A DNA stretch of 64,000 nucleotides, from assembly GCF_963921235.1 (NCBI RefSeq), contig NC_086097.1:157234001-157298000 (forward strand), given 5' to 3'. A program made the position numbers and the translations under genes. Positions 4,014 through 59,955 of the stretch are shown here, piece by piece. The notes below the pieces were generated by a model. The model saw only the letters and a list, made by a program, of their open reading frames with translations. It was not told the DNA's origin and did no database searches. The stretch comes from Mobula hypostoma (Eukaryota). Within the stretch, counting starts at the first letter, position 1. Each line of letters opens with the position of its first letter.

Positions 4014-4340
4014 CACAGCAGGGGTGATTGATAAGTTTATGGCCTAAGGTAGAAGGAGATGAGTTATTAACTTCAAACTTTCTGCATAATCACTCAGAGT
4101 TGAACTGCATGTGCATGTAACATGAGCTGGATAACTCATCTCCTTCTACCTTAGGCCACGAACTTATCAATTACCCCTGCTGTGGACACTTTCTGGAGGT
4201 CCAAGATCCGTATGTTCCACGACCGCTGGACTAAGTGTGTAAATGTAGGAGGGGACTATGTTGAAAAATAAATGTGCTAGGTTTTCTAAAATTGAGTCCT
4301 TCTACCCTATAGGCCACAAACTTATCAATCACCCCTCGCA
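4014..4340. mobile_element. Mariner-like MITE with nested inverted repeats
   Basis: 4014-4067 is the near-perfect reverse complement of 4131-4184; a third arm at 4297-4338 ends ...atcacccctcg, like a mariner-type TIR. Confidence 0.75.
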
Positions 4341-5454
4341 CTTGGACAGTACAATTGTGGCTGTATCTTGCTTTTGTACACTGCTTATGGATTACATTGA
4401 AATCCTTTGGATACTTCCTCAGGAAAGTGTTTGATATGTAAGCAAATACAAACAGCCGATTTATATGCACTGTACAAAATGGACAATGATTCAAAGTATA
4501 GATTGTCTGTTTTTAAAGGAGTTGATTAGGAAAACCATGTTGGCAAGAAGGGCTCAACTTTCTCTGTTCTTTGCCATGTGCCTACTCTAATGTTTCATCG
4601 TAAAATTATTATAGCATAAAATTATTGAATCACAGTTACCGATGGTAGACTGCCATTTGGCCTGTCAAGTCTGTACCAGTTATATGTATGAATAATCTAG
4701 CTTGTCCTACATTTATAAAATTTCTCTTACTTCAGATACTTGTCCAGCTCCTTTGAGAACACAACAAATTAACCTCTCATCCCTGTTATGCCTACCAGTG
4801 CATTTCAGAATCTAACCATAGGCTATGCAAAAAAGCTCTTCTCCCTCATGTTCCATTTGGTTCTATTGCCAGTCCTGATGCAAGGTTACAACCTGAAATG
4901 TTATTTGTTCATTTCCTTCTATAGATTCTGCAACTCACCCATTACTCTGGATTCAAGCACCAAGTGTTTCCATAACCCTATTGCCAAACACCTTTATTGT
5001 GTTCTTCAATTCCTGGTCTTCTTTACCAATCGGAACACTTTCTATTTGCTCTTTGTATCCTGCATTATATCAGATCCCTTTGAAATCAACTCTATTCCTG
5101 GGAGAATGACCATGGGGTATCCACATAACAAAAGCATATTATCTCTGTGATCTGTTCACAGGATCTCTTTCATATCTTTTCTGAAGCCTTTACATTTTTC
5201 CAAAAAGGTAGTGTGCATAAATTAACACAATACATCAAGGGTGGTCACATCACCATTTCACAAATGTTCAACATGTTTTCTTTTCTCTGTTTTTCTACTT
5301 ATCAGACCCAAGTTCTTTTCCACATCTTTAACTACTTCCTCAATTAAATATGAACATCTACCCAAGATCTCCCTGTTCCTAATTCTGCAGTTTATTTTGC
5401 TTCTTCTCATTCTTCCTGCCACTTTGCATTGCTCAACATTAAATTTTAAATTTT

Positions 5455-6035
5455 ATTTACTTGAGGTCTTCTGTTGGTCAGGGTTGACCATGAATGTTGT
5501 GTCCTAGCTCTCCACATGATATGTAAGACAGGGCAGTACGATATGGAGAGCAAGCTGTTTCTCATGTAGCAGACTCCCCCTCACCTCACTGCTGAGGAAT
5601 TCAAAGGAATGGCAGGTACCGATAGAGGTTGGTTCCAGCGGTGTCAAGGCGTTGCCGGTCAGCATTGAGCTCAGCATGGGACTGTCTTAGGGACTCCAGC
5701 TCCGTATTTTTCCCTCTGGGTTTACTCCCAAATGAGTGGGTATAGCTACAAGGCAGTGGAGGTTTGTGATCAGAGGTTTCCTTCTCCTAAATGAGCTGCT
5801 AACCATGAATGATGAGCCCCATCTGCCCACAGCAACTGTTTTTTAGGTGTCAGTAACACGCCTTTTCCCCTTCTTCTGTCAGTAGAAACAGTTCTTCCAG
5901 GATTAATAGTTAAGCCTCACCTGAAGGCCACAAGCTGGATTGATTGTCAGAGGCTATTTGGGATGCATGCCATTGGGAGCATTTAATAGGTAGCTAGGGC
6001 TTATTCCTGTTACCACCCCCAGCTACAACAATCAT
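5455..6035 (-). mobile_element. Probable RTE-like non-autonomous element
   Basis: GC-richer block with sharp borders; by-eye resemblance to RTE-type UTRs; no ORF. Confidence 0.3.
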
Positions 6036-6039
6036 AAGG

Positions 6040-6486
6040 AATACACACAAACTGCTAGAGGAACTCAACAGGTCAGGAAGCATCTATGGAACTGAATAAA
6101 CAGTCGATGTTTCAGAGGAAGACACCAGCATAAAAAGGTGGGGGAAGGGGAATGAGAATAGCTAAAAGGCGACGGGTGAAGCCAGATGTGTAGGAAAAGC
6201 GAAGGGCTGGAGAGGAAGAAATCTGATAGGAAAGGGAGTTCACCATAGGAGAAAGGGAAGGAGGAGATGACCCAGGGTGGGTGATATGCAGGTGAGAAGA
6301 GGTTAAACGGCCAGAGTAGAGAATAGAAAAAGAGGGAAGGGGGAGGGAATTTTTTTTTTACTGGAAGGAAAAATCGAAACTCATGCTGCTAGGTTGGAGG
6401 TTACCCAGACTGAGTATAAGGTGTTGCTTTTTCACCTTCAGGATGGCTTCCTCGTGACAAAAGAGGCGGCCATGGACAAACATGTT
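6040..6486 (-). mobile_element. Penelope-like element 3' end (ORF end, UTR, pLTR remnant)
   Basis: Minus strand reads MFVHGRLFCHEEAILKVKKQHLILSLGNLQPSSMSFDFSFQ* (GIY-YIG C-terminus), then a pyrimidine-rich UTR and the repeat gaaacatcgactg...tgagttcctctagcagtttgtgtg. Confidence 0.8.
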
Positions 6487-8065
6487 GAGTACAGAGAGGA
6501 AATTAAGAACCTGGTGGCATGGTGCGAAGACAATAACCTATCCCTCAATGTCAGCAAGACGAAGGAATTGGTTGTTAACTTCAGAATGAGTAGCAGACCG
6601 CACGACCCAATTTACATCGGTGGTGCGCAAGTGGAACAGGTCAAAAGCTTAAGATCCTTGGGGTCGATATCACAAATGACCTGACTTGGTCCAACCAAGC
6701 AGAGTCCACTGCCAAGAAGGCCCACCAGCGCCTTTACTTCCTGAGAAAACTAAAGAAATTTGGCCTGTCCTCTAAAACCCTCACTAATTTTTATAGATGC
6801 ACCATAGAAAGCATTCTTCTAGGGTGCATCACAACCTGTTATGGAAGTTGTCCTGTCCAAGACCGGAAGAAGCTACAGAAGATCATGAACACGGTGCAGC
6901 ACATCACACAAACCAATCTTCCATCCGTGGACTCACTTTACACCGCACGCTGTCAGAGCAATGCTGCCAGAATAATCAAGGACACAACCCACCCAGCCAA
7001 CACACTTTTCGTCCCTCTTCCCTCCGGGAGAAGGCTCAGGTACTTGAAGACTCGTACGACCAGATTTGGGAACAGCTTCTTTCCAACTGTGATAAGACTG
7101 CTGAACGGATCCTGAACCTGATCTGGGCCGTACCCTCCAAATATCCGGACCTGCCTCTCGGTTTTTTTGCACTACCTTACTTTTCATTTTTCTATTTTCA
7201 ATTTATGAATGTAGCCCCCTGGCCAGCCTCAGGGTCACTCAGCTCGCTGTTGTCTAGGGAACCAGCCCTTGGCCCCGCCAAACTGAGTAATTAGTTTGTG
7301 TGGATGCTGTGTGATGTACCCCACCCCGCCCAAATAACAGACAATACACCAGATACGATTAACTGATTTACAGTTTATAGTTATTACTGGAACTATATAA
7401 TTAATAGAGAATAAAATATAAAAGGAAAATATAAGGTGCCACACTTAACAAAGTTCAATCTGTTCGTGCACAAACAGTTGGAGCTCAGGACCCTCCTTCT
7501 TCACTCTGCAATCCCCTCGGACCACCTCGACCTGCCACCTGGGACCAACAACAGTGGTCGACCAGATGATCCACACGAGTCCGTCTCCGTCTCCCCTCCT
7601 CGCCGAACACCCTGGACCTCGGATTCCTGCTCAGGGTCCGACCCCCTTAACGGACTCACAGCACCTGGTCCATCCTCTGTCTCTCTCTCTCCTGCCTTCT
7701 CCCCCAAAACCCGTGCATACAATATCTTACAGACACACAGAAAGCATGACAACTATCCCAATTGGTTCATTTGTCCTCTTATCAATAGATAATCCAAAAC
7801 AATCTGCTAGCTGGAGGACTTTCTCAGCAGTTAGCATAACAAAGAAGCCCTTTCAATTATAACATAACAAAGAAGCCATTTTAATTAGACTACACGGTGA
7901 CAAAAAAACCCTTACAATTTATAATTTAAATTTTTAATATTTACTATTGATTTGTAATCCAGGGAGCGGGAAGCGTGGAATCAAATATCGCTGTGGTGAT
8001 TGTGCATTCTAATATCAATTGTTTGGCGACAATAAAGTATAAAGTAAAGTGTAAAGTAAAGTAAA
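6487..8065 (+). mobile_element. 5'-truncated Rex1/Babar LINE (RT C-terminus), interrupted by a solo LTR
   Basis: EYREEIKNLVAWCEDNNLSLNVSKTKELVVNFR ... IIKDTTHPANTLFVPLPSGRR...NSFFPTVIRLLN; tail aataaagtataaagtaaagt. Confidence 0.9.
7210..7916 (-). mobile_element. Probable solo LTR inserted in the Rex1/Babar 3' UTR
   Basis: TGTA...TACA termini; about 700 bp GC-richer block that splits the AT-rich LINE UTR; no clean TSD seen; strand tentative. Confidence 0.6.
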
Positions 8066-8076
8066 ATTAAATCAAA

Positions 8077-8435
8077 TTAAAATGTTTGGCCACTGGAAAA
8101 GTTTCACTTTTGGTAGATGGAGACGTAGGCGCTCTATGAAGCAGTTCCCCAATTTACCGCAGGTCTCATCATTGTAGAGGAGGCTGCATCAGGAGCATTG
8201 GACACAATAGATGGCCCCAGAAGATCCACAGCTGAAGTGTTGCCTCACCTGAAAGGACCGTTTGGGGCCCTGAGTGGAGGTAAATGGGTAGGTGTAGCAC
8301 TTTGGCCGCTTGCAGGGATAAGTGCCGAGAGGGAGATTAGTGGGGATGGACAAATAGACAAGGAAACCACAGAGGGAGCAATCTCTGCAGTAACTGGGTG
8401 GGGTAGTAAAGATATGTTTGGAAGTAGGATCCCTT
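8077..8435 (-). mobile_element. Penelope-like element GIY-YIG endonuclease fragment
   Basis: GTYPCKRPKCYT...QGPKRSFQVRQHFSCGSSGAIYCVQCS*CSLLYNDET: Cys-rich linker plus GIY-YIG-like motif; collinear with 6040-6486. Confidence 0.85.
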
Positions 8436-11269
8436 AAGGATCCTACCATCAAAGGAATAATTTTATGGGTCATTTTTAATTTACTACCAATCATTTATTC
8501 TATCAGCTTAATTATAACCCCTTATTATTACCGTCAAATACTCAGATAGAGGCTATTTAACGTATTGTCCATGTTGGTTCTTTGCAGAGTAATCTAGATA
8601 TCCCATATCACTGCTTTATCCCATTGAAATGCAAAGTATTTTTCTTCAAGTGTCTGTCTAATTCCCTTTTGATGTCAAAAATTAATTTTCCATCTCTGTC
8701 AATGGAGTGCATAGTGACTGTATGCTACAGTCTGTAATTGATTTGAAATGGAGTTGTATTACAAATGTGAGCCAATATTCCAGTCCTCCACCTAGGACAA
8801 GAATCAAGCTGGGTATTTCTTGAGGTGGTCTGTCCTCAGAGAAGTGCCATACATTGCTCATAAATAGTTCAGAGTGAAAATATTGCATTCTAGTTATATG
8901 AGTTAATACAACTTGAGGCTATTATAAATGATTAATTATAATATTATTGCAAAAGTAATAAATAGAGGCTGCATGGTAACAATCTACAATAAGCTTATTA
9001 AGCAGTTAAAAGGATTTCATTTATTGGAAACCATCAAGCAGAGCAAAATTATACACACACAAAGCCAGAAGGCATGTGCTTCTCTAAGTAGTTCTTAAAT
9101 GTGTCTGGAATTTAACATTTTCAAACAAATTCATTGATAATTGTGTGAATTACAGATAGCATTCTCTCATACTTAGCTGTGAGCAGCCACACTCTGAAGA
9201 CCTGGCTTATCAGTCTCCTTAGTAAGAACTTATTTATACAGGCTTGGTTAGCGCACTGCCAGTAAATTTAATATCATGTCAGAGTTGAGTTCATATTCTC
9301 CCAAAAATTTTAAAAGGAATGCCGTACCTGCCATCTCAGTGAGCTAACAGGATTTCAGTTTCAAAAGGTGGCACGTTCTGTGGCACAGCATTCTCTCAGT
9401 ATTCATTATCAACTTAGATTTTTGTGTTTGAGTCTCTGGCTTGAGACATGAACCCACGATCTTCTGTCCTTCCCCCCACACCCCCCCCCCCGATCCTCCA
9501 GCTCTCAGAGGAAACAGAGAACGAGTGAAGAGCTTTGTGTAAAAGCGGTTTTCCCAGTATGTTGAAATGACCTGTGGGTAGGCTGAACAGAAAGGCGCAT
9601 GCACTTGTCATGATCAAAATCATGCCCAAAGAGCACTGGATGCTCAATAATCCAGTTTAGGCATTTCTTCCGCATCATATGACAGCTCCTTTCTTCACAG
9701 AAGAGCCATGATTCTCATGGGACTAGTGCACTGAACGTGTGCATTCTGCTGAGCAATTTAGGCAACACATAGACTTCAAGCTTCCATATCCAACAGCACA
9801 AGGAGTTGAATGACAACTCTCGGATCTTTCTACAAAGAACAAAATACACCTGAAATAAAACAATTCCTCCTTAGTTTTGCTTTCCCCTTCATTTGCTTGA
9901 AAAGCCAGTGGTGTTGGTTGATCTCCTCAGAAGCAATGGTAAGCTAGAAGTTTAGAATTATGGTTATTTAGAATTGGTACAGCAGTTTCAGGTAACCTTA
10001 AATGGAGACTAAAACCCACTCTAGTCCTTGCTAACTTTGTATGGAAACAACAGACTCAGAATAGGCTGTGGGTACCAATTTAACTTAATTTTTATTTATA
10101 AATTCCAAGTGTATGTTATTAGTGCTATTTATGTTAATTGGCAGATTGGTCAGTTGGTAACACATGGATTATCCAAGCACACCAGAAGTATGCACAGTAC
10201 GCTATTGATGTCATCAATTTCGTTGCAACAGCCATTGATGCCAGTCCTGCCAGCTTTGCATGTGACAATCCAGTAAGGATTAATGAAGCAAGAGGAAGCT
10301 AGCATGTAACAGCAGGGAGACTCCATAATCATCTCTACTCAACATAATGCCCACAAAGGGGATCCTAAACATCACATATGTTTGCTTGTTGTTGATATTA
10401 TTGGGGAAAACTGTAGTAATAGCTTTGAATAAAAAGGTAACACTCTCGTAATCCTTCAGTGAATGTTTAAGATGGGTCTGACTGCTCTGTGCAAGGAACG
10501 TATTGTCTGAGCTGTGATGGTGGGTCTGACTGTTAAACTCTTACTGTCTCTTACGTCCAGGTCTGGCTTCATCTGAAACAGAGAGGTACAGTACCGAAAC
10601 AGCCCTTCGGCCTACCATGCCGATGCTGATATTCTATACCAGCACGAGTCTATAGCCTTGTATTTCTAGGCTATTCAAAGACAATTCACTCTATTTGGTG
10701 TGTAGTGGTAGTGCAGTGGTGGAGAGCAGCAAAATATGGCTATGTAGAGTCTTGTTAACTTTGTGGGCTTGCCAGGGGAGCAATTTTGACTGACAGCACC
10801 CAATTTGCCTTGCCAAAATTTGGTATTAGCACCCTCCCACAGGAAATCCCAAACCACAGTATTATAAACCTGATGGTTAATCATGGACATGAGAGGCAGT
10901 GTGGAAAGGTACCTTAAAACCTTAACCCTCCTCCAAGCTCTTTATCTTTTGGTTCCTACACTGGACCAATAGATTGCTGCTTGAGAAAAAGGTTATCCTT
11001 GTTAAACCTGGTTCCAGACACCAATCCAAGCCAACACAGGAAGTGTTCTTGAAAAAGGATAAAATAATCAGCAGACTATTGGCATTCGAAAGGAATAGTC
11101 TCACTTATTGAACTACTTTCGACATAAAACTGTTATGCACTGCAGTGAAGGTTTTCCAGCATGTGGTGATTGCTAATTCTTCCACAATCTTGGTTTAGTC
11201 CATGTTCAGACACTATCAAGAGGAGAGACTGAATGATAGAAATGGCCTTAAAAAGCCCTCCTATTTTTT

Positions 11270-14168: not shown

Positions 14169-14302
14169 TAGTCCTGCTGAAGGGTCTGGGTCCGAAACGT
14201 TGACTGTACTCTTTTCCATTGATGCTGCCTGTCTTGCTGAGTTCCTGCAGCATTGTGTGTGTGTTGTTTGGATTTCCAATATATACAGATGTTCTCTTGT
14301 TT
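14169..14302 (+). repeat. Penelope-derived terminal repeat with near-intact hammerhead
   Basis: tagtc-CTGCTGA-agggtctgggtcc-GAAA-cgtt-gactg; one core substitution (CUGAUGA to CUGCUGA). Confidence 0.8.
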
Positions 14303-15908: not shown

Positions 15909-17588
15909 GTAGCCTCTCCTCAATGGGAGCCTCAAGGTGAACCACTAGGCTTGTCTGGATTGTCTCAATGTAAATCTCGGATGAGGGAAGAGTCCAGGAT
16001 GAAGGAGCAGGGAATCCATGAGCGTTCTTCCAGGCCATATCCCTCCCAATCAACCAGGTACTGGTGACCCCTGCCTCAACAATGCACATCCAGTATTCGC
16101 CGGATGGTGTAAGCTGGGTAGTCATCAATGATCCGGGCGGGTGGAGGAGGTTCAGCTGGATGGCACAAAGGGCTGACAGACACAGGTTTCAGTTAGGAGA
16201 TGTGGAACCTGGGATGAATGTGCATGGACCTGGGCAGTTTGAGTTTGACCATCGAGGGGTTGATAATGCTCTCTATTTCGAATGGTCCAATGTAACAAGG
16301 AACGAGTTTCTTGGGTTCATTCTTGAGGGGGATGTTTTTTGAAGAGAGCCAAACCTTCTGGCCAGGCTGATAGTTGGGTGCAGGAATTCGATGGCGATCG
16401 GCAATCCTCCGGTTGCGTTCAGCTGAGTGGAGCAGGGCCACGCGTGCATCCTTCCAGAACTTACAGCACCAGTGGAGATGGGCCTGAACTGAAGGCACAG
16501 TAATGTCGTCTTCATGGGCAGGAAACAGAGGGAGTTGATAACCGAGGGAGCTTTCGAAGGGAGACATTCCGGTGGCGGTGCTAACCAGGGAGTTGTGGGC
16601 ATACTCCACCCAAGAGACACTTACAGTACCCTGGAGGAACTCAGCAAGTTGGGCAGCATCAGTGGAAACGATGAGTCAACGTTTCGGGCCGGAAGGATTT
16701 GAAGAATCCACCCAAGTGAGATGGGTGCTCCAGGATGACGGGTTGTTGGCAGATACACAGCACAGTGCTGCTTCCAAATCTTGGTTTGCTTGTTCCATTT
16801 GACCATTAGTCTGTGGATGGAAACCGGAAGACAGACTTACTGAGTCTCCAAGGGCTTGACAGAAGGATCTCCAGATTTGAGAGATGAATTGGGGGCCCCG
16901 GTCAGAAACAATGTCAGAGGGAATTCCATGAAGGCGGAATACGTGATGGACAAGGAGGTCGGTGTTTCATGGGCTGTAGGGAGTTTGGGAAGGGCTATGA
17001 AGTGCAGGGCTTTGGAGAAACGGTCTGTGTCTGGACTCTTCCCTCATCCGAGATTTACAACAAGACAGTCCAGACAAGCCTGGTGGTTCACATTGAGGCT
17101 CCCATTGAGGAGAGGCTACTGTCACAGCTGAGTACAGCAGTGTTACCATGTGAAGGGGTAGTCCAGCAACAAAATCCAGAGCAATGTGGGACCAAGGGCA
17201 GCCAGGGACAGGGAGGGGACGAACCAACCCAGCGGGTGGCCGATGGGAGGCTTTTCCGTGGGCACACACAGAACAGGCAGAGACGAAGGAACGAGTGTCA
17301 GCATCCATGGTGGGCCACCAGAAATGTCACTTCAAAAGGGACAGAGGTCGATCGATTCCAGGATGGCAGGTGAACCGGGAAGTATGCCCCGAATGGAGAA
17401 CCTGAGACCAAACAGAGTTAGGCACGAAGAGACCACTGGGGGGTCCATTGCCTGGGTCAGGTAGATTCTGTTGTCCTCCTTGATTATGGATTTGATCTCC
17501 CAGGTGAGGGCAGCCACAACACAGAACAAAGAACGTAGAACAGTACAGCACTGTATAGTCCCTTCAGCCCACAATGCTGTGCCGACTC

Positions 17589-18611
17589 TCAAACCCTGCC
17601 TCCCATATAACAGGATGGTGGAAGGATGTTATCAGGGTTGGGAAGGCAGTCCTTGGAGACGTATTGATGAGAGAGAGCATCTGGCTTCCCATTCTTGGAA
17701 CCAGGACAATAGGTGAAGGTGAATTTGATACAGCCAAAAAATAATGCCCAACGGGCTTGGTGGGAATTAAGGCGTTTAGCGGTTTGGATGTATGCCAGGT
17801 TCTTATGGTCCATCCAGACGATGAATAGATGTTCTGCTCCCTCCAGCCAGTGCCTCCACTCCTCCAATGTGAGTTTGACGGCCAGCAACTCCCGGTTCCC
17901 AATGTCATAGTTCCGTTTGGTGGGAGATAGACAACGAGAGAAGAAGGCGCAGGGATGGAGCTTTTGGTCTGGGACGAAGCATTGAGAGAGGACCACTCCC
18001 ACCCCAGAGTCGGAGGCGTCAACTTCCACAATGAATTGGCAAGAGGGATCAGGTTGTGCCAGGATGGGAGCAGAGGTGAAATGCCTCTTCATCTCTGAGA
18101 AGGCTGAATCCACTTTGGGGGTCCAGTGGAAGGGGGTCGCAGGAGAGGTGAGTTGAGTAAGGGGCGCTGCCACCTGGCTGTAATCCCTGATGAAGCAACG
18201 GTAGAAGTTTGTAAACTCCAGAAAACGCTGGATTTGTTTGAGTGTCGTGGGTTTTGGCCACTCTGCCACCACCGGGATCTTTTCGGGATCCACCCTTACT
18301 TGCCCGCTCTCAATGATGTACCCCAGGAAACTGACAGAACGGGCATGGAACTCGCACTTCTCTGCCTTAACGAATAGCTTGTTCTCCAAAAGCCTCTGAA
18401 GAACCTGACAGACATGATGGGTGTGTTCCTGAAGACTACGGGAGAAGATTAGGATGTTGTCCAAATAAATGAAAATGAAACGGTTAATAAGGTCCCTAAG
18501 GACGTCGTTGACCAGGGCTTGGAAGATGGCAGGGGGTATTGGTGAGACCGAATGGCATGACCAGATATTCAAAATGACCAAGGGGGGTGTTAAAAGCTGT
18601 TTTCCATTCAT
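17589..18611 (-). pseudogene. pol: Gypsy pol fragment (RT-RNase H), catalytic YLDD changed to YLDN
   Basis: 340 aa ORF with Gypsy RT/RNase H motifs; frameshifted N-terminus; no gag or protease upstream. Confidence 0.9.
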
Positions 18612-20840
18612 CTCCCTTCCTTAGGTGTGCTATCATCAAAGGAAATTAGGAGAAAATGGGGAATTAATGGTCAGAACCGTGGCACAATCAAAGGGAATTA
18701 GGAGAAAATGGGGAATTAACGGTCAGGACAGTGACGGTGTAGAGTTTAAACACCGGTGAAAAACCTATCTTGGTTCTGAATTTGCCATCTAGTTGTAAAG
18801 TTGTCTGATTAGATATTTTGTAGTGAGTGAAAACCCTTTGGCATAAGGGATACAACAGCAATCATTCAGTGATTTTAAAATTGGAACAAGTCATTTGTAC
18901 AGACCTGAAATCTGATGAAAAGTTATTGGCATGAAATGTTCTCTCTATGAATGCTGCCTGATCTGCTGAGTTTTCCAACATTTTCTGCTTTTATTTTATA
19001 TTTAAGTTGTGATAACTTGCCATCCTCTACAAATGAAGGGATTATAGATCCTGTGCAGGCAGACAGAATTAGTTTAATTTGGCTTCACATTTGGCACCAA
19101 AGGACCTGTTTCAGTACTGGACTATTCTATGATCTATATTCGTCCTCAAATTGTCATTGTGATTCACTACAATAAAAACTCTCCATCTCCAAAGATTCTG
19201 CTTTAAAAGATCTTGCACAGTAGGTTGCAAGAAGCCATCTCCTCAACGTTATCCAACTACTTGCCCTCAATTGTACTGACGAATATTTTTGATGTACGCT
19301 TACATTTTTCATCCTATCTTTAAGACAGCAAGAACTACAATATCAATTGACCTTACTGGAGATTATTTCCAGAGATTCCAGTCTGTTCCCCCTCCATCAA
19401 CCAGGAAGTAAAACAAGAAGTTGACCCAAACATGCTGGATTATATTGATCCTCTTAATTTGTTTTGAAGAGAGAAAAACAATGTTTATCTGAGAAGGACT
19501 AAACTATAAATGTAAATGATAAGGCATGTTAATGGAATTCCCTCTAGGATCATTGAGAGAACAAATGGTTGTTAGTCTTTAAACAAAGGGATTTTCGTGA
19601 CTCAGGCTTGAGTAGATTTTTCATTGACTCCTTTCAGTGTAGGAACACAATTGTGATTAGATAATGTTGTAAATAAGTAAAAGACCAACAAATATCACAA
19701 ACTGTCTTCAGACCCATAGGCTGCTTGCTCAGTCTTTGGACCTTCTGAAATGTTCAGCAGTCCCTATGACTGTAATGAGCTGTTTTCAATTATGTGCATC
19801 CTGGCTTTATTCCAGAGCAGCATTTCTCTTTTCATTGCTAAACTGTTACCTTTATTTCTCTGTGACTTGCAGCTGGATTATGTTAGGTTCCCAGATTTCT
19901 GTACTCACCTGGCCCATGTGTGGAGAGGAGATCACACTGGCACTCTGAATTGGCTGCAACAGCCCAGCATCCTCTCATCCTGCACCCAGAATGTCACTGG
20001 GGTCTGCCTTCTGTCAGAACTTCAGGTGAATCCAACAACATTTAATGGTCTCTAGTTATGAAAATATTAAGTAAATCATTTTAAACTAACTAAAATTAAG
20101 TAGTAAGAAGTTAAATAGAAGCATACAAATAATTTAGAAATAATTTGAAAAACTGAATATAGTAAAAAGAAAATGGCTTACTTACTCCTATGACATAAGA
20201 GATTCTACAGATGCTAGATATCTTGAACAACACACACAAAATGCTAGAGGAACTCAACAGGATTTTGCTAGCATCTATGGAGGGAAATGATCAGTCCATG
20301 TTTCAGACCAAGACCCTTCATATGCAGATGAACATCAGTTCTAATGAGTCATTCAGCTCAGAAAAAAAAAGCTGTTTAGTCTACTGAATCCACACATCAA
20401 TCTACACTAATCTCATTCAATAAGTCTCTCCAATTCTGCGTATTGTTCTGCTGAGCATTGTGGACATGGTATGCAGACACTGAAATGTGAGGAAAAACTT
20501 GAAATATTGTGTTGGTTGTTAACATTAATAATCTACTTCACATGTAAATTTGATTAATAAATTAATCAATTTAATCCAGTCCAATCTGATATGCCCGCAA
20601 TCACATGAATAATAGCAGCAGTTTACAACAGCCTACCAGCCTGCTTATTTTGGAGTTGTGGGAAGCCAGAGAACTTAGAAGAAGCCCATTTAAATATCAT
20701 ATAAAGTACCAGAAGAGTTGATGAAAGTATGAGGAAAGTAAAATGAAATAGGTGTAAAGGGGAACCTGAATATCAGCATGGAACTACTGGCCTAGTTCCC
20801 TGATATATTTAAAAAAAACCTCAAAAGTTCATTTCTTCAG

Positions 20841-21699: not shown

Positions 21700-21798
21700 A
21701 ACACACACAAAATGCTGGAGGAACTCTGCAAGTCAGGCAACATCCATGGAGGGAAATGTACAGTCATCATTTCGGGCCAAGACCCTTCATCAGGACTG
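21700..21798 (-). repeat. Penelope-derived terminal repeat, hammerhead core intact but stem III mutated
   Basis: Minus: cagtc-CTGATGA-agggtcttggccc-GAAA-tgat-gactg; perfect 5-bp stem I. Confidence 0.8.
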
Positions 21799-28440: not shown

Positions 28441-30421
28441 CTCTCAGATTAAAGCTGATCAAAGGAAAAATGGAAAATTAGATTCAAAGATGATGTTGGT
28501 CAGTATTTTTGTGACTGGAAATCTCTGAACAATGGTGTTTGACAGTAACCATTGCTGGAATCCCACCTATATATATTGTTTTATAATATAATACATATAA
28601 TACAATTATATTTTGACCATCCACTAGATTATTTTATATAAAATCTAGATGTGAATGAGAAGGCATGATGAGTAAATTTGCAAGTAGCATGAAAATTGGT
28701 GATACTTTTGACAGATGATATAGAGTATTGTGAAAAAGTCTTAGGCACATATATATAGTTAGGGTATTTATGTATTGCAATTTACTGCTGCCACACAAAA
28801 AACATAGTTCATGACATATGTGAGTGATAATCCTGATTCTATATGTATCTCCATTGTGGACTGAGAGTTAGAAGGGGGCAGAGAGAGGGAAATCATGGTT
28901 TGGGAAAGGGGAGGGAGCAGGAAGCACCAGAGAGACATTCTGTAATGATCAATATACCAATTGTTTGGAATCAACTAACCTTGCCTGGTGTCTTAGGGTC
29001 AGGTATGTCAGCACCCAAGCCACTGACAGCCCCGGCACTCTTCTCTGCCAGGTGTCCTACACCCCTCCCTCATCAATCCACCCTCATCATTTCCAACATC
29101 CTTTGCTCCCTGCAGATTTACATACTTGCTCTCTGCTCCATGTTCAGGAATACAGTACTGTGCCTAGAACTGTACATCCATTGAAAAGGTGGAATTTATT
29201 TCTGATGAGTGTGCAAGGCAATGAATTTTTTAAAGTCTTGTCAGGGTATACACCATGAATGGAGAATGCAGAAATGAGGATCCCTGGGAGTACTGGAGAA
29301 CAGATATGTTGCTGCTGAAGTCCAAGGATTCATGAAGGTGAAATCATAAGTAGATAAGTTTTGAAGAAGGTATATGAGATATTTGTTTTCATTGGCTCAG
29401 ATGTGGAATATAAGACCAAGAAAATTATGGTACAACTTGAGGAAACATTAAGTGAAACTACAGCCGGAGTATTGTGTTCAACTCTCGTGACAACACTATA
29501 GGAAAGACACAATGGCTCTGGAGATGGTACAGAGAAGGTTCACAGAATGTTGCCTGGAATGGAGTGTTTTGTTAGTGAGGAGAGAATGGATAGACTGTTT
29601 TTGTTTCCATTGGAGGGTGAGTTGGACCTGACTGTGATACAAGTACTCCGCAGGTCGTGGCAGCATTGCATTCCTGTGAATTGTTCATAATCTGGACAGC
29701 TCACAAGTTGGAAATGCTGCCAGCACCAAGTTCTTCAGCTGGCTGAAAATGCCTGCAGCCCCAGAGCAGCCGGCATATCCGTCCCTTCGGTCTGGGCAGG
29801 GGCCAGTATACAAAATTTATGAGGGACACAGATAAGTTAGATGATCAGAAAATGTTCACTGTAGCTGCAGAGTCTAAACCTTGTGGATATCAAGACAAAT
29901 CTACTGTCAGATGCCGTTATTTGATAAGGTGAAGGTAAAAAAAAAAAAATTGAAGGTAAAGAATAAAAGGTTTAGAAAGCTCTGAGGAGCAATTTGACAT
30001 GGATGTGGTGGACTAAAAATTCTGTTTCTGAGTGTTGTGAAATGGGACTGGATGAGATATATCCCAGTTTACCAAGCAAGCAAAGGAAGAGATTGCTGCG
30101 TCTTTGGTGATGAACTGTGCGTCCTCACTGGCCAAGGCGTAGCACCAGATAACTGGACAGCGGCAAATGTTATTCTTTATACAAGAAAGGGATAACTCTG
30201 GGAATTATAAACCAGTGAGTCTTACTTTAGTGGTGGGCAAATTATTTGTGAGACAGGATTTACAAGCATTTAGGAAGCATAGACTGATCAGGGATAGTTA
30301 GGATTGTTTTGTGAGGGGCGGGACATACCTCACGAACCTGAGTGAATTTTTTGAGGATGTAACAAAGCACATTGATAAAGGTAGAGCAGATAAGGTGGTG
30401 TATATGAATTTTAGTAAGGCA

Positions 30422-31625
30422 GTGATGTAGTGTACCTGGACTTTCAGAAAGCCTTTGATAAGGTCCCACATAGGAGATTAGTGGGCAAAATTGGAGCACA
30501 TGGTATTGGGTGTAGGGTACTGACATGGATAGAAAATTGGTTAGCAGACAGGAAACAAAGAGTAGGGATTAACCGGTCCCTTTCAGAATGGCAGGCAGTG
30601 ACTAGTGGGATACTGCAAGGATTGGTGCTGGGACTGCAGCTATTTACAATATACATTAATGATTTAGATGAAGGGATTAGAAGTAACATCAGCAAATTAG
30701 CAGATGACACAAAGCTGGGTGGCAGTGTGAAATGTACAGGGGATGTTGAGATAATGCAGGATGACTTGGACAGGTTGGGTGAGTGGGCAGATGCATGGCA
30801 GATGCAGTTTAATGTGGATGAATGTGAGGTTATCCACTTTGGTGGCAAGAACAGGAAGGCAGATTACTATCTGAATGGTGTCAAGTTAGGAAAAGGGGAA
30901 GTAAAACGAGATGTAGGTGTCCTTGTTCATCAGTCACTGAAGGTAAGCATGCAGGTACAACAGGCAGTGAAGAACGCTAATGGCATGTTGGCCTTCATTA
31001 CAAGAGGAGTTGAGTATAGGAGCAAAGAGGTCCCTCTGCAGTTGTAGGGCCCTGGTGAGACCACACCTGGAGTATTGTGTGCAGTTTTGGTCCCCAAATT
31101 TGAGGAAGGACATTCTTGCTATTGAGGGAGTGCAGCGTAGGTTCACAAGGTTAATTCCTGGGATGGCGGGACTGTTATATGTTGAAAGATTGGAACCACT
31201 GGCCTTAATATACACTAGAATTTAGAAGGATGAGAGGGGATCTGACTGAAACATGTAAGATTATTAAGGGATTAGACACGCTAGAGGCAGGAAACATGTT
31301 CCCGATGTTGGGCGAGTCCAGAACCAGAGTCCATAGTTTAAGAATAAGGGGTAGGCCATTTAAAACGGAGTTGAGGAAAAACTTTTTCACCCAGAGAGTT
31401 GTGGATCTGTGGAATGCTCTGCCTCAGAAGGCAGTGGAGGCAAATTCTCTGGATGCTTTCAAGAAGGAGTTAGATAGAGTTCTTAAAGACAGTGGAGTCA
31501 AGGGATATGAGGAAAAGGCAGGAACGGGGTACTGATTGTGGATGATTAGCCATGATCACAGTGAATGGCGGTGTTGGCTCGAAGGGCCAAATGTCCTACT
31601 CCTGCACCTATTGTCTATTGTCTAT
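30422..31625 (+). mobile_element. Younger 5'-truncated CR1 LINE (RT to 3' tail)
   Basis: YLDFQKAFDKVPH...LADDTKLGG...RPHLEYCVQFWSP...NFFTQRVVDLWNALP; tail cctattgtctattgtctatt. Confidence 0.95.
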
Positions 31626-36400: not shown

Positions 36401-38235
36401 ATAAAATAGGTCGTAGTCAACATGATTTCCTCAAGGGAAAATCTTGCCTGACTAATCTGTTGGAATTCTTTGAAGAAATAACAAGTAGGATAGACAAAAG
36501 AGAATTGGTTGATGTTGTGCATAATTCCCTAAAGGTTAATTTTTAGGTTTAATTTGTGATGAGGAGGGCAATTGTGATGTTAGTATTCTTTTCAAGAGGA
36601 CTAAAGCTTTCAGAAGGCCTTTGACAAGATGCCACATATGAGATTGTGGAACAAAATATGAGCCCATGCTGTTACAGGAAAGATTCTAGCAAGGATAAAG
36701 CAGTGGCTGATTAACAGGAGACAAAGAGTGGGAATCAGGGGAGCTTTTTCTAGCTGGCTGCACATGACTAGTGCTGTTCTACAGGGATCTGTGTTGGGAC
36801 CGATTCTTTTTACTTTATATGCCAATGATTTGGATGATGGAATTGATGGCTTTGTGGCAAATTTTCCAGACAACATGAGGATACGTGGAAGGGCAGATAG
36901 TTTTGACGAAGTAGAGAGGCTACAGAAGGACTTAGACAGATTAGGAGAATGGGTAAACAAATGGCAGATGGAATACAGTGTCAAGAAGTGCATGGTCATG
37001 CACTTTGGTAGAAGAAAGGGATGACTATTTTCTAAATGCAGAGAAAATGCAAAAAATAAACTGAGGTGCAAAGGGACTTGGCAGTCCTTGTGCAATATTC
37101 CCTAAAGGTTAATTTTTAGGTTGAGTTTGCGATGAGGAAGGCAATTGTGATGTTAGTATTCATTTCAAGAGGACTAGAATATAAAAGCAAGGATGTAACA
37201 CTATGATTTCATAAAGCACTGGTGAGGCCTCACTTGGAGTATTGTGACCAGGTTTGGGCCCCTTACCTTAGAAAGGATGTGCTGAAACAGCAGATGGTTC
37301 AAAGGAGGTTCACGGAAATGATTCCAGGTTTGAACACTTGTCGTAGGAAGAGTGTTTGATGGCTCTGAGCCTATATTCACAATAATTCAGAAGAATAAAA
37401 GGTAACGTCATTAAAAAATGTTGAATGATGAAATGCCTTGATAGAGTGGATGTGGAGAGGATATTTCCTATGGTGGAAGAGCCGAAGACCAGAGGCCACA
37501 GCCTCAGAATAGAGGGGCACCCTTGTAGAAAAGAAACAAGAAGGAATTTCTTTAGCCAGAGGGTGGTGAATCTGTGGAATTCTTTGCCACAGGCAGCTGT
37601 GGAGGCCCAGTCTTTATTATATTTAAGCTAGAGATTGATGGGTTCTTGATTGGTCAGGACACGAAGGGCTATCATAGTCATAGTCATACTTTATTGATCC
37701 CGGGAGAAACTGGTTTTCGTTACAGTTGCACCATAAATAATAAATAGTAATAAAACCATAAATAGTTAAATAGTAATATGTAAATTATGCCAGGAAATAA
37801 GTCCAGGACCAGCCTATTGGCTCAGGGTGTCTGACCCTCCAAGGGAGGAGTTGTAATGTTTGATGGCCACAGGCAGGAATGACTTCCTATGACACTCTGT
37901 GTTGCATCTCGGTGGAATGAGTCTCTGGCTGAATGTACTCCTGTGCCCAACCAGTACATTATGTAGTAGATGGGAGACATTGTCCAAGATGGCATGCAAC
38001 TTGGTCAGCATCCTCTTTTCAGACACCACCGTGAGAGAGTCCAGTTCCATCCCCACAACATCACTGGCCTTACGAATGAGTTTGTTGATTCTGCTGGTGT
38101 CTGCTACCCTCAGCCTGCTGCCCCAGCACACAGCAGCAAACATGATATGAGGAGAAGGCAGGAGATTGGGGGCTGAGAAGAAAATTGGATCAGCCATGAT
38201 AAAATGTTAGAGCAGATGCGATGGGCCAAATGGCT
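33485..38235 (+). mobile_element. Near full-length decayed CR1 LINE
   Basis: ORF1 Cys motifs (CSSCRMW, CKKC) and esterase-like VHVGTYDMG/VVISGLLP; ORF2 endonuclease VMGDFN; RT KGKSCLTNLLEFFEE, GSVLGPILF; many stops and frameshifts. Confidence 0.92.
37672..38146 (-). mobile_element. Rex1/Babar 3' fragment inserted in the CR1 3' end
   Basis: FAAVCWGSRLRVADTSRINKLIRKASDVVG...RKSFLPVAIKHYN; tail aataaagtatgactatgactatga on minus. Confidence 0.88.
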
Positions 38236-38780: not shown

Positions 38781-38880
38781 GTAAGGTCCTTACCCAGAAA
38801 GTGGTGGATGCAGGGAACCTGCCAAAGCTAGTGGCAGAGACAAGTAAACCGGGTTCATTGAAAAAAATACTCTTAGATAC

Positions 38881-39018
38881 CCCTCCCACTTTCAAATCTC
38901 TTGCTAGCTCTTCCTTCAGTTAGTCCTGACGAAGGGTCTCGGCCCGAAACGTCGACTGTACCTCTTCCTAGAGATGCTGCCTGGCCTGCTGCGTTCCCCA
39001 GCAACTTTGATGTGTGTT
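38881..39018 (+). mobile_element. Young Penelope-derived short insertion with 10-bp TSD
   Basis: Flanked by tcttagatac (38871-38880 and 39019-39028); CpGs retained; ends in tgtgtgtt. Confidence 0.88.
38921..38958 (+). ncRNA. Minimal type I hammerhead ribozyme motif
   Basis: UAGUC-CUGACGA-A-GGG(ucucgg)CCC-GAAA-CG-UC/GACUG: stem I UAGUC:GACUG, core CUGANGA and GAAA, 3-bp stem II, palindromic ACGU stem III, GUC triplet ending at 38953. Confidence 0.8.
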
Positions 39019-39069
39019 TCTTAGATACGCAAATGGGTGATAGAAAAATGAGATCATGAGAACTGAAGA

Positions 39070-40774: not shown

Positions 40775-41570
40775 CCAACAGTGGTGCGATCAGCCAATTT
40801 ATAGATGGTGTTTAAACTGTGCATAGCCTGACAGCCTTGAGTGTAGAGAATGTAGAACAGTGGACTAAGCACATGTCCTTGGTGTTTCTGTGTTGATTGT
40901 CAGCGAGGAAGAGATATTTTTACCAAACCACACTGACTGTAGTCTCTCTATGAGGAAGTCAAGGATCCAATTATAGAGGGAGATACAGAGACCCAGGTTT
41001 TGAAGCCTGTTGATTAGTTCTGACCTAACTCTCAATAGATTACAAATCTCTTGGTTCATCCTCAGCTTCCAATTTGGGTATATCTGGTTCATGAAGGCAT
41101 ACACTCGTCCACACGGGTCTTGATGAAATCACTAACGATTGTGGCATATTCATTCTGATGCAAAGATGAATCCCTGATGAATATAGTGAATATAGAATGA
41201 ATATAGTGAATATAAGATGAATATAGGTCGGTCCAATGATTCAAAACTGTCTTGTAAGCACCCTTGTACCTCCCTTGACCATACCTTCATTGTCCTCATC
41301 ATCGCTGCTGTGGTCCTCAGTCTCTGTCTATATGACAGGAGTAGAAGTACAGCCATGTGATCTGAATTGCCAAAATGCAGGCATAAGATGGCACAGTAAG
41401 CGTATTTGTTGGTGGTGTAACAGTCATCAAATGAGTTGGTTCCTCTGGTTCTAAGTATGACAAAATGATGGTATTTAATGAGATAATTTTCCAAGCTGGC
41501 CTGGTTGAAGTCCCCTGCAATGATTAGGAAGGCATCAGGGTGTGTTGTCTTGTGACTATTGATCAAGTTC
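40775..41570 (-). mobile_element. Rex1/Babar endonuclease and RT fragments
   Basis: HPDAFLIIAGDFNQASL...FGNSDHMAVLLL; LYNWILDFLIERLQSV. Confidence 0.85.
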
Positions 41571-42180
41571 AATGTGTCAATATCTCAGAGGATCTAAACT
41601 GGGCCCAACATATTGATGCAATCCCGAAGAAGGCATGTCATTGGCTATACTTCATTTGTCTGAGGAGATTTCGGATGCACCCAAAGATTCTAGCAAATTT
41701 CTACAGACGTACCATGGACAGCATTCTGACTGGTTGCATTAACTCCTGGTATGGAAAAGCCAAATGCAAGAGGAAAAGAGGTTGCAGAAACTTGTTTTCT
41801 CAGATTGCACTTTCATTGGCACAAGCTCCCCTCAGTCAAGGGCATCTTCACAAGTGGTGCCTCAGGAAGGCAGTATCTATCATTGAGCACTTCACCATTA
41901 GGGACATGACCTCTTCTCATTAATACCATCAGAGAGGCGGTACAGGAGGCTGAAGACATAAATTCAATGTTTTAGGAACAACTTCTTCCGCTCCGCCATC
42001 AGATTTCTTAATGGACCATGAATCCATGAACACTACCTCAATATTCCTGCTTTGAATTATGTATTTATTTATTTATTTTAATTGTAACTTATGGTATTTT
42101 TTATGTTTTGAACTGCAATGTTACCACAAAGCAACAAACTTTATGACATATGTCAGTGCTAATAAACCCGATTCTGATTC
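41565..42180 (+). mobile_element. Rex1/Babar 3' end in opposite orientation
   Basis: VNISEDLNWAQHIDAI..KKA...NFYRRTMDSILTGCINSWYG; tail aataaacccgattctgattctg. Confidence 0.85.
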
Positions 42181-46497: not shown

Positions 46498-47133
46498 ACA
46501 CTGAGTATCAGGTACCTCCAGTACCTGATAAAATGGCCACTGAGTGTATGTTCACAGTCTTCTGCTGCAGTAGCCCATCTGCTTCAAGACTCAATGTGTT
46601 GCATGCTCAAAAATGCTCTTCTGCACACCATTGTTGTAACATGTGGTTATTTGAACTGAAAGGTCTCAGCCCAAAATGTTGACTGTACTCTTTTCCATAG
46701 ATGCTGCCTGGCCTGCTGAGTTCCTCCAGCATTTTGTGTGTGTGACCTTCATCTTCCTGTCAGCTTGAACCAGCCTAGTCATTTCTCCTCTGACTTTTCG
46801 TTAACAAGACATTTTCACCCACAGAACTGCTGCTTAAAGGATGTTTTTTCTTGTTTTTTTGCAGCATTCTCTGTAAACTCTAGAGACTGCAATGCATGAA
46901 AATCCCAGAATATCAGCAGTTTCTGAGATACTAAACTACTGCTGTCTGTCACCAACTGTCATCCCACAATCGGTCACTTAGATCACATTTCTTCACCCAT
47001 TCTGATGTTTGAACTGAACGTCCTAAACATGTCTTAAACATGTCATAAAATCCTATGCACATGATTGGCCGATTAGATATTTGCGTTAATGTGAAGATAT
47101 ACAGATGTACATAATAAGATGGTTACTGAGTGT
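46498..47133. mobile_element. Tc1-like non-autonomous element containing a pLTR insertion (about 46655-46745)
   Basis: TIR-like taaaatggccactgagtgta and ggttactgagtgta; same family in reverse orientation at 59966-60475. Confidence 0.7.
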
Positions 47134-51729: not shown

Positions 51730-53084
51730 GTATGTCCAATGTTTCCACTGGTTGCCTTGCCAAGTCTGCACACAGACACAAGTATCATTGGTTAAGAGTA
51801 CCGACTGTGGTCCTATCCACCTGGGAGCGAACCCCAGCCTTTCTGGCAGCACCCTCACCATGAGTTAGTCGCCGGGCTGTGGAAGGACGATCTCCTTTCC
51901 CTCTGGCTCTCTCTGATCAGTGATTCGCTGCTGTTGTTTTGCTCGGTCCTTCAATACTTTAAGTTGATTACAAAGGTCTTTCACGTACTGTGTCATTCTA
52001 TCCCTGTAGGCCCCAGGCTCCGCACAACCCATAATTACCCCATGATATAACTTCAGTAATACCTGCCTAATACATGGTGGGGCCACCGCGACTCTTCCCT
52101 TCCCGTGTGTCCAGCTCCCGTCTGGCCCTCCTTTGCTCCCTTTCTCCGCCACCTCTCCTCTTCTGCCTCCACCTCTTCATATAATTTTACTAAACTGACT
52201 TCTGTCACTTCTTCCTGCACATTCGCAATTTCAGTTGCCTCTTGTCCCCCTGCTACCTTATTCGCAATAATGTCTGCCCTCGGAGGGACTGGAAAATCTT
52301 TATGTTCTGGAGACAAGCCATTCAGGATTGCTACAGGGCCGGCCACTATGGGATGCAATCTTGACATGGTCTTAAGGGCGGTATAGCCTCTTAATGGATA
52401 TAATTCACTGGGCTTTACTGGCCATGTAAACAAGTTAGTAGTGGCCGCAGTCTCTCTGAGTATCCCCTGGTGTTTTTGTTCCTTCACTATACCCTGAACA
52501 GCAGTCAGTGTGTTAGTTTTTATAGGGTACTGCTTATAGGGTTTATACAGACCCTCCTCTATTTTAACTGGGTTTATCTTTACTCGACCACAATCTTGCT
52601 TGTGTCTAGCTCACATAGCTGGGAATTGTTGACAAGGTAGCCCATAGACCCCATACTGGCTTCAGTCTCTGGTGATGGTGGCAGCTGCGACTATACTAGC
52701 CAGGTTGTGTATTCTGTTGGTTATGTGTGTTCGCTGCCTCTGACTTTTCCATGTTATTTCTCCCTTTTCCGAATCTATAACAGCTCTTGCTTCCCTGAGG
52801 ATGTCTATTCCAAGGATAGTGCCCTCGATATTTGGACGTACCCAGAAATGCACTGGGAGCTGCATTCCCCCGATTTCTAGTACTTGTGACTTGCTTTTTT
52901 CTGCTTTCACCGCTTTCCCTCCTACACCCCTAATATCAATGGCCTGTCCGGTTGTTGGCAAGGGTAGGTCTGTTATTGATACCGATGCCCTTGTGTCCAC
53001 TAACATATTGCATTGCCGTCCCCGTAACAAGGCTATTGTGTACATCCGTAGGTCACCTGCGCTGGCAGTGGGGCCCGCCGCCAC
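51730..53084 (-). pseudogene. pol: pro-pol remnant with large deletions
   Basis: LVDTRAS...ILGIDIL protease; RHKQDCGRV..YKQYPI..QGIL..TWPVKP RT start; RQVLLKLYHG integrase start; FAPRWIGPQSVLLT integrase C-terminus; RT, RNase H and IN catalytic cores missing. Confidence 0.85.
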
Positions 53085-53099
53085 ATCTTTTTCTCACCT

Positions 53100-57959: not shown

Positions 57960-58255
57960 TGTCTGAGAAATATGTTGCAACATAGCATGTTCTAGCAGGC
58001 TGATGATGAAGAAAAAGATACACTGAACCAAAAGATGATAGACAGAAATATCCACTTCTGATACACACATAAAGAAGGAGTGAGAAATCTAAAATTGGAG
58101 AGTTCAACAACAAGTTCAGAAGACTGGATCACGCCCAGGTAGAGGAAGAGGTGTTGTTGCTCAAGTTTACACTGTGTCAAACTAACAGTGCAGAAGGCCC
58201 CGGACGGAAAGATCAGAGTGGGCAGAGGATGTTGAATTAAGATGGCAGGCAATAG
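57960..58255 (-). mobile_element. Penelope-like ORF 3' fragment
   Basis: TQCKLEQQHLFLYLGVIQSSELVVELSNFR, homologous to the peptide at 6360-6484. Confidence 0.7.
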
Positions 58256-58298
58256 AATTCTCCAGCAGACTTGAAGTCTTGCACTGCCTAGTCCTTAC

Positions 58299-58761: not shown

Positions 58762-59955
58762 CTGACCCACCTGGACAGCCCCAACTCTTACATCAGAATG
58801 CTGTTCGTTGACTTCAGTTCGGCAGTCAGTACTATGATCCCCTCCAAGCTGATCACCAAACTTCGCCAGCTTGGTACCAGCTCATCCCTCTGCAATTGGA
58901 CCTTGGACTTTCTGACTATCAGACCCCAATTAGTTAAGTAAGACAACCTCTCCTCCTCCACTCTCACCCTGAACACCAGTGTACCTCAAGGCTGTGTGCT
59001 GAGCCCTCTTCTGTACTCCCTTTTCACCTATGACTGCGTTCCTATACATGGTTCTAACTCCATAATAAAGTTTGCAGACAACACCATAGTGGTTGGTCTG
59101 ATCAGAGGGGATGACGAGACGGCCTACAGGGACAAGGTCCAGCACCTGGCTATGTGGTGTGCCGACAACAATCTGGCCCTTAACACCCAGAAGACCAAGG
59201 AGATCATTGTGGACTTCAGGCATTCTAGGAGCCACACTCACATCCCCATCTACATCAACGGAGCTGTAGTGGAGCATGTATCAAGTTTAAAATTCCTCGG
59301 TGTCCACATTTCCAAGGATCTCACCTGGTCCCTGAACTCCTCCATCCAAATCAAAAAGGCGCAACAGTGCCTTTATTTCCTGCGGAGCATCAAGAAATCT
59401 CACCTCTGTCCCAGGATACTGACGGACCTTTACCACTGTACCATTGAGAGCATACTCACCAATTGCATCTCAGTGTGGTATGGCAATTGTCCCGTATCGG
59501 ACTGCGAAACACTCCAGCGTGTGGTGAAAATTGCCCAGCAGATTATTGGCACCCAATTGCCCACCATTGAGAACACCTACCATAAATGCTGCCTGGGCAG
59601 GGCGAAAAGCATTATCAAGGATGCATCTCGCCCTAACCATGGACTTTTTACTCTCCTCCCATCCAGTAGGTGCTACAGGAGCCTCCGCTCCCGCACCAGC
59701 AGGCACAGGTGAGCTTCTTCCCTGAGGTTGTGACCCTGCTGAACCTCACACCACAGCACTAAGCAGTATTGCACCCATATTGTACTGTCTCAGTACTTTT
59801 ATATTTGTGTGCTGTAGCACTTACTTTTTATTTGCAGTTATTTTGTAAATAACACTATTCTTTACATTTCTGGTCAGATGCTAACTGCATTTCATTGGCT
59901 TTGTATCTGTACTTGGCACAATGGCAAAAAAGTTGAATCTAATCTAATCTAATTT
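58762..59955 (+). mobile_element. Relatively young 5'-truncated Rex1/Babar LINE
   Basis: 238 aa ORF PQGCVLSPLLYSLFTYDC..KFADNT..WCADNNLALNTQKTKEIIVDFR; tail gaatctaatctaatcta. Confidence 0.95.

What the first reader, a model, noticed from the sequence alone, without database searches (positions are those of the whole stretch)
38921..38958. Intact minimal hammerhead ribozyme in a young, TSD-flanked short insertion
Seen: UAGUC CUGACGA A GGG-ucucgg-CCC GAAA CG UC^GACUG, with both core boxes, a closing stem I, a 3-bp stem II and stem III reduced to the palindrome ACGU. It sits in a 138-bp insert bounded by a perfect 10-bp TSD, with CpGs undecayed. Known: Penelope-like elements carry minimal type I hammerheads whose palindromic stem III favours dimeric cleavage, and an extra A after A9 occurs in a natural viroid hammerhead (CChMVd plus strand). 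Inference: this copy could still cleave after C38953, probably only as a dimer.
Basis: partly seen in the sequence, partly recalled or inferred. Interest (0 to 1): 0.8.

Follow-up and report, generated by a model that had tools for sequence, protein, structure and literature searches.

The report
Penelope retrotransposon stump with minimal hammerhead
This is the short tail end of a very abundant Penelope-type jumping gene, carrying the miniature self-cutting RNA motif already known from such elements; thousands of identical copies lie in the genome, the lone copy likely does not cut on its own, and so it is ordinary.

Summary
Confirmed: all minimal-hammerhead positions are present at 38921-38958, within a 138-bp insert between 10-bp direct repeats. 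The insert is the 5'-truncated 3' end of a Penelope-like element (PLE); longer copies carry an RT + Cys linker + GIY-YIG frame of about 1,015 aa. The 38-mer occurs 4,395 times exactly, and a C11.1-to-U variant 29,805 times. It matches the published PLE minimal hammerhead, whose monomers did not cleave (PMC4209133); one relative needed the PLE protein (PMC11167929). The monomer folds into an inactive hairpin. Stems covary between families. Copies were made from uncut RNA: 45 break off at the cut site, and 5' ends pile up at stem I (14.3% of copies) rather than near the cut site (2.3%), likely marking the RNA's start. The U11.1 wobble lineage is less decayed and six times commoner, so this copy belongs to an older wave. 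This scan noted the same motif in at least 16 other genomes, and the stem I pile-up in two notes shown. No RNA data were available. Ordinary.

The parts
38871..38880 (+). Left target-site duplication (10 bp); its last C may be shared with the element (1-nt microhomology)
38881..39018 (+). 5'-truncated 3' end (pLTR) of a Penelope-like element
   Evidence: 97-99% identical to 39 other scored copies, most of those examined continuing upstream into the element; full frames
38921..38925 (+). 5' strand of stem I; the family-wide pile-up of copy 5' ends (38921-38924), likely the RNA start at A38922 (inferred)
38926..38933 (+). Core box C3-A9 plus the extra A between 9 and 10.1
   Evidence: PMC4209133
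38934..38945 (+). Stem II, 4 bp with a CUCG loop; G10.1-C11.1 here, G-U in the commoner lineage
38946..38953 (+). G12-A15.1, palindromic ACGU (stem III possible only between two molecules) and C17, the predicted cut site after 38953
38954..38958 (+). 3' strand of stem I
39013..39018 (+). 3' end at the first of the family's two end clusters (likely reverse-transcription start 1; this copy has no 'tail')
   Evidence: 43 of 85 copies end at insert positions 133-148, 41 at 168-186; PMC11167929
39019..39028 (+). Right target-site duplication
38790..39050 (+). Older dispersed repeat into which the element inserted (CR1-like LINE end by recall, not tested)
   Evidence: continuous 71% match across the empty site in L116

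Best explanation
The 138-bp insert is a 5'-truncated copy of the 3' end of an abundant Penelope-like retrotransposon, likely of the Neptune clade, and its hammerhead is the known minimal pLTR motif, likely carried along uncut and predicted to be inactive as a lone copy. Shown: the parent has a frame of about 1,015 aa (RT, Cys linker, GIY-YIG). The motif lies about 295 nt after the stop and, in tandem copies, ahead of the next start codon (cut site 139 nt before it). Copies end at two sites 65-105 nt past the cut site, often with 9-15-bp TSDs, and in 11 of 11 head-to-head pairs one arm ends at each site. Inferred from PMC11167929: the element's nuclease nicked this site, reverse transcription began inside an uncut RNA at the first site (39018), ran through the hammerhead and stopped 41 nt beyond it, and repair left the 10-bp duplication. 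Inferred: the family-wide pile-up of 5' ends at stem I marks the start of the element's RNA, reached when copying begins in the upstream pLTR. Inferred: if the motif cuts at all, it does so weakly and only with a second copy or the element's protein.
For: Parent frames: RVT_1 E=7e-5 and GIY-YIG E=1e-3 in L069; 55,397 first-look candidates for an RT piece. Copy numbers: 4,395 and 29,805 exact 38-mers, controls 0; 73 related hits in 600 kb sampled at places I chose, about 420,000 per genome. Ends: bimodal 3' ends, 42 of 85 copies with inversions, 11 of 11 paired arms; TSD of 8 bp or more in 13 of 26 simple copies against 9 of 650 mismatched controls. Uncut template: 45 copies break off after C17 against at least 34,200 read-through copies; 5' junctions in the 10 nt before the core 9,334 of 65,497, near the cut site 2,012 of 87,978. 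Fold: core G5-G8 pairs with 15.2-17 at P 0.98-1.0. Literature: monomer without activity, dimer low (PMC4209133); protein-assisted cleavage, uncut RNA the main substrate, no reads at the cut site (PMC11167929); 1 of 9 Xenopus dimers cleaved (bioRxiv 2026.07.22.740005).
Against: Both Pfam scores are below the curated cut-offs, and no solved structure matched. The clade rests on the Cys linker, not on a tree. Stem pairing is kept across families (80% of cells paired against 61% shuffled), which argues that the fold is selected in source elements, possibly for cutting. About 25 of the 100 listed junctions near the cut site fall at positions 73-74 (hand count), so a small cut-RNA class (about 1% of copies) is not excluded. 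The folding model omits tertiary contacts. No RNA reads were seen, so transcription and cleavage of this copy are untested. A host gene around the site is not excluded: 29 of 42 long frames were scanned, and those with Pfam hits look like repeat fragments.
Confidence: 0.88

Rival explanations
1. This copy is a working ribozyme in place: it is transcribed, pairs through ACGU with one of the tens of thousands of other copies or binds the PLE protein, and cuts host RNA after 38953.
For: All core positions and the G10.1-C11.1 pair are intact; partners are abundant; dimers and protein-assisted forms cut in vitro (PMC4209133, PMC11167929).
Against: No other intact copy in the window; active dimer about 9 kcal/mol above two inactive hairpins; copies decay at CpG like neutral DNA; no RNA evidence.
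Confidence: 0.07
2. The stumps are a SINE- or retrozyme-like non-autonomous family with its own fixed unit that starts at stem I, and this insert is one of them.
For: An estimated fifth of young copies start at positions 41-44; PLE-derived retrozymes are described (bioRxiv 2026.07.22.740005).
Against: 5' ends run from insert position 103 to -1841 and continue into the coding frame; this copy starts 41 nt upstream of the pile-up; it is a single unit, not a tandem array.
Confidence: 0.04
3. For the 5'-end pile-up only: it reflects an RT stall, microhomology-driven fold-back, or a 3' splice site at stem I rather than a transcription start.
For: Many of the 30 junction loci are fold-backs, some using stem I or II microhomology; a pyrimidine tract and AG precede the core, and the D. 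virilis intron ends at helix I (PMC4209133).
Against: Several junctions abut the TSD directly with no inversion (L233, L235, L240, L256, L257); no recurring upstream exon among the 100 listed; RT meets the fold from its 3' side, so a structural block should fall near position 78, not 42.
Confidence: 0.4
4. The motif is a chance match.
For: No Rfam match; folding z-score only -1.3.
Against: 1 weak hit per 3 Mb in simulation; the same core with different, paired stems in four other families; fixed position in a PLE terminal repeat.
Confidence: 0.01

Closest known systems
[quoted passage not shown]
   Same: Type I, both boxes, a base between 9 and 10.1, G10.1-C11.1, palindromic 15.2-16.2, 4-5-bp helix I, in pLTRs and as dispersed single copies, often as opposite-strand pairs; reported for Neptune, Poseidon and Xena of fish.
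   Different: Helix II is 4 bp (7-8 in Schistosoma); copy number is far above the 4,000-9,000 quoted for coelacanth and Xenopus; the commonest lineage has G-U at 10.1-11.1.
Poseidon element PAc of Anolis, Frangieh et al. 2024 (PMC11167929; parts 1-2 of 4 read; supplements searched without hits, figures not visible)
   Same: Hammerhead near the pLTR-ORF junction, two internal RT start sites defining a 30-40-bp tail, uncut RNA as template.
   Different: Here the motif lies wholly upstream of the start codon, the protein has a Cys linker, and a 5'-end pile-up at stem I is seen, which the parts read do not describe.
Neptune and Nematis PLE clades (bioRxiv 2021.04.23.441226, passages)
   Same: [quoted passage not shown]
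   Different: Clade not fixed by a tree here.
Non-LTR retrozymes (bioRxiv 2026.07.22.740005; parts 1-3 of 5 read)
   Same: PLE-derived type I hammerheads.
   Different: Defined by tandem units, each with a hammerhead; this is a single truncated end.
CChMVd plus-strand hammerhead (PMC3705267, passages)
   Same: Extra A after A9.
   Different: A viroid hammerhead with a full stem III and loop-loop contacts; unrelated in origin.

Membership tests
PLE minimal hammerhead | CUGANGA and GAAA boxes with a UH cut site | tested here: met
PLE minimal hammerhead | Extra base between 9 and 10.1; G10.1-C11.1 | tested here: met
   G-C in 14 of 15 aligned rows
PLE minimal hammerhead | No stem III; palindromic 15.2-16.2 | tested here: met
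   ACGU at 38949-52
PLE minimal hammerhead | Covariation in stems I and II | tested here: met
   22 cells changed on both sides against 8.0 shuffled, 0/500; between families only; rows are related and hand-picked; family B pairs poorly in stem I; pairs-with-change 198/500 is not significant
PLE minimal hammerhead | Self-cleavage as dimer or with protein | not testable with these tools
   energy model only
EN+ Penelope-like element | One frame with RT and C-terminal GIY-YIG | tested here: met
   (scores below curated cut-offs; motifs visible in the sequence)
EN+ Penelope-like element | pLTR tandem or inverted structure, 5' truncation, 30-40-bp tail | tested here: met
Neptune clade | Cys-rich linker between RT and endonuclease | tested here: met
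   C-x4-C-x2-C in L003, L068, L069, L070; shared with Nematis
Neptune clade | RT phylogeny | not tested
   no reference sequences held
Non-LTR retrozyme | Tandem units each with a hammerhead | tested here: not met
   single copy at the site
Rfam hammerhead families | Score against the covariance models | tested here: not met
   no match at E up to 10

The most novel reading that the evidence does not exclude
In this PLE family the RNA starts at the A of stem I (38922 here), from an initiator that overlaps the helix, so the hammerhead is an uncut 5' leader. The most successful recent lineage swapped the near-universal G10.1-C11.1 pair for G-U while expanding to at least 29,805 identical copies, so cutting has been tuned down or is dispensable and the fold serves the promoter or the RT. 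Stumps such as this one would then be tens of thousands of portable promoters rather than ribozymes.
Probability: 0.35. Interest if true: 0.42.

Novelty: new member of a known kind. Interest (0 to 1): 0.17.

Why it matters
The locus itself matters little. The family gives a genome-wide record bearing on an open question, what PLE hammerheads do: tens of thousands of insertions agree with the in vitro finding that uncut RNA is the template, point to where the RNA starts, and offer a natural pair of variants (G-C against G-U at 10.1-11.1) for a direct cleavage comparison.

Tried and rejected
Rfam scan: no hammerhead hit. Solved-structure search with the parent protein: 0 hits. Sequencing runs could not be obtained, so expression, RNA ends and the empty allele in other samples remain open. 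Spliced copies joining an upstream exon to stem I: no recurring upstream sequence among the 100 listed of 9,334; splicing is not excluded, since PLEs keep introns. A downstream promoter element as in PMC2377424 (passages): the G12-U16.1 stretch matches 5 of 8 letters, 2-3 nt off the expected spacing; too weak to count. Linking families B-E to their own PLE frames: the translated hits near them fit family A neighbours or were absent, so their PLE identity is not shown. Covariation within the young family was not used, because CpG decay mimics it. The per-position table failed through an offset error and was redone. Sequence look-up among earlier findings gave nothing. No paper describing the 5'-end pile-up or the G-U lineage turned up in the searches; most listed papers were seen as listings only, subscription papers are not covered, and figure S2 of PMC11167929 and the bioRxiv supplements, which could bear on this, were not visible.

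Full report
Observation. The motif is at the stated coordinates with every conserved position; C17 is 38953. RNAfold gives stem II four pairs and a CUCG loop, and pairs the core G5-G8 with 15.2-17, extending stem I into an inactive hairpin (-12.9 kcal/mol, z -1.3). The 10-bp repeat at 38871-80 and 39019-28 is a true TSD by three tests: chance about 2e-4; a related repeat in L116 runs across the empty site with one copy of it (1 of 43 hits spans the junction); and 13 of 26 simple family copies have such repeats against 9 of 650 mismatched controls. Rfam does not detect the motif. A descriptor of my own found 5 distinct sites in 264 kb of real sequence and 1 weak hit in 3 Mb of simulated sequence.

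What it belongs to. The window lies in a 3.48-Gb animal genome; that it is a cartilaginous fish is my recall of this repeat, echoed by earlier notes, and was not tested. The 40 scored matches are 97-100% identical, and most of the 29 other fetched ones continue upstream into shared sequence that encodes an RT end, a Cys linker and a GIY-YIG domain. A protein search gave 55,397 first-look candidates, 150 scored. Twenty of these with long frames show a protein of about 1,015 aa from the first Met in L068, the motif about 295 nt after the stop, inverted truncated partners and, in L069, a tandem upstream pLTR whose cut site lies 139 nt before the start codon. Pfam gives RVT_1 and GIY-YIG, both below the curated cut-offs. 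This is the layout of an EN+ Penelope-like element; the linker points to Neptune or Nematis (bioRxiv 2021.04.23.441226, passages), and no tree was built.

Abundance and age. The 38-mer occurs exactly 4,395 times, the U11.1 form 29,805 times, a downstream 30-mer 77,653 times, all controls 0. Sixty 10-kb stretches at round coordinates of my choosing held 73 related hits, 18 of them at 88% or more over 80 nt, giving about 420,000 and 100,000 per genome (arms of inverted pairs count separately). The insert differs from the majority of 22 sister copies at 2 of 138 positions (22 of 30 loci covered it without gaps) and keeps 6 of 6 CpGs. Among 59 of 85 sampled copies that cover the motif, 37 keep core and stem I, and 48 carry U11.1. 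U copies are less decayed than C copies (20 of 384 against 17 of 88 CpG sites). So this copy is a well-preserved member of an older wave. That G-U at this pair lowers activity is recalled from the mutational literature; the papers read only call the G-C pair highly conserved (PMC4209133) or keep it in miniribozymes (PMC544870, passage; PMC2837043, passage, reports compensatory changes there).

Covariation. A relaxed pattern (1,915 matches, control 80) showed, among mostly mutated family copies, four other families with the same core. On 15 hand-picked rows, 80% of cells pair against 61% shuffled, 22 cells change on both sides against 8, and slid registers fall to 20-54%. Against this: the rows are related, two of the five measures are not significant, six rows are gapped in stem II, and family B pairs poorly in stem I. 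The fold is real and selected in source elements; that says nothing about this copy.

How copies were made. For 85 copies picked by a 30-mer downstream of the motif (first 3.4 Mb of contig 1), 43 end at insert positions 133-148, 41 at 168-186 and 1 elsewhere; 42 have inversions, and in 11 of 11 head-to-head pairs the arms end at different clusters. This matches the two internal RT start sites and the tail shown for the Anolis element (PMC11167929). This copy ends at 138. Only 45 copies genome-wide break off right after C17, several by single-base deletions, with the pattern catching about 27 of 64 such ends. 5' ends: after dropping 14 of 85 rows whose alignment stopped at indels against the reference, 13 of 50 at risk end at 39-46 (0.033 per nt) against 6 of 65 at 65-83 (0.005). 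Genome-wide, 9,334 of 65,497 copies have a junction at 35-44 and 2,012 of 87,978 at 65-74 (each pattern catches about 9 of 16 junctions). By hand count of the 100 listed, 80 fall at 41-44 and 55 at 42-43 (about 4 are older-family or indel variants), and about 25 fall at 73-74. Several abut the TSD directly. I infer that the template was mostly uncut and that the RNA likely begins at the A of stem I, in an initiator-like context (consensus recalled); Penelope has an internal promoter (PMC2377424, passages). An RT stall, fold-back by microhomology or a splice acceptor remain rivals.

Would this copy cut? Predicted not alone: stem III cannot form in one strand, and the core is sequestered (P 0.98-1.0). 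The active dimer scores -16.7 kcal/mol against -25.8 for two monomers and -34.1 for an inactive duplex, tertiary contacts ignored. No other intact copy lies in the window. Published relatives: monomer inactive and dimer weak (PMC4209133); cleavage only with the element's protein and not needed for insertion (PMC11167929); 1 of 9 dimers active (bioRxiv 2026.07.22.740005). No RNA reads were seen. Of 42 long frames in the window, 29 were scanned; the Pfam hits look like repeat fragments, and short host exons are not excluded.

Comparison and verdict. All sequence features of the PLE minimal hammerhead are met; it is not a retrozyme (no tandem unit). The scan holds 30 findings with these words in at least 16 genomes, 8 shown, two of which note the pile-up at the front of the motif; I had recorded that reading earlier, and those notes are not independent evidence. 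The locus is a new member of a known kind. What is worth keeping is family-level: the whole-genome counts for uncut templates, the 5'-end pile-up and the G-U lineage. Interest 0.17.

Noticed in passing
genome-wide; L068-L087: The commonest lineage has U at 11.1 (29,805 against 4,395 exact copies). In the long-frame loci the printed copy after the frame shows U wherever one was found (L081's frame-end copy included); 48 of 59 sampled copies carry U. Other motif CpG sites are changed in 20 of 384 (U copies) against 17 of 88 (C copies), p=6e-5, so the change was fixed in a younger source element.
   Followed up: yes
L178-L223 (G000:C1, first 3.4 Mb): In 11 of 11 head-to-head pairs one arm ends at 133-147 and the other at 174-186, as expected if the two nicked strands prime at the two RT start sites.
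   Followed up: yes
L267, L280, L288-L298: At least four other minimal-hammerhead families with the same core and different stems I and II; their parent elements were not identified.
   Followed up: partly
window 811-887, 6035-6113, 14169-14262, 16631-16691, 20229-20319, 21700-21797, 46658-46743: Seven older, decayed copies of related PLE ends, 71-85% identical; translated PLE remnants at 6367-8485 and 58088-58256, minus strand.
   Followed up: partly
window 16196-18620 (-) and 52665-53093 (-): Fragments of LTR-type retroelements: RT, RNase H, SH3 and aspartyl protease domains.
   Followed up: no
window 6594-7112, 30418-31044, 36662-37021, 41528-41920, 58942-59709 (+): RT and ALKBH8_N-like fragments, probably ends of LINE-type repeats (identity by recall).
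   Followed up: no
L068:2576-6082, L069:3465-6593: Several copies keep frames of 900-1,169 aa without a stop, so the family was active recently.
   Followed up: partly
window 38901-38923: A pyrimidine tract and two AG dinucleotides just before the core look like a 3' splice acceptor; sister copies show a branch-point-like word that this copy lacks.
   Followed up: partly
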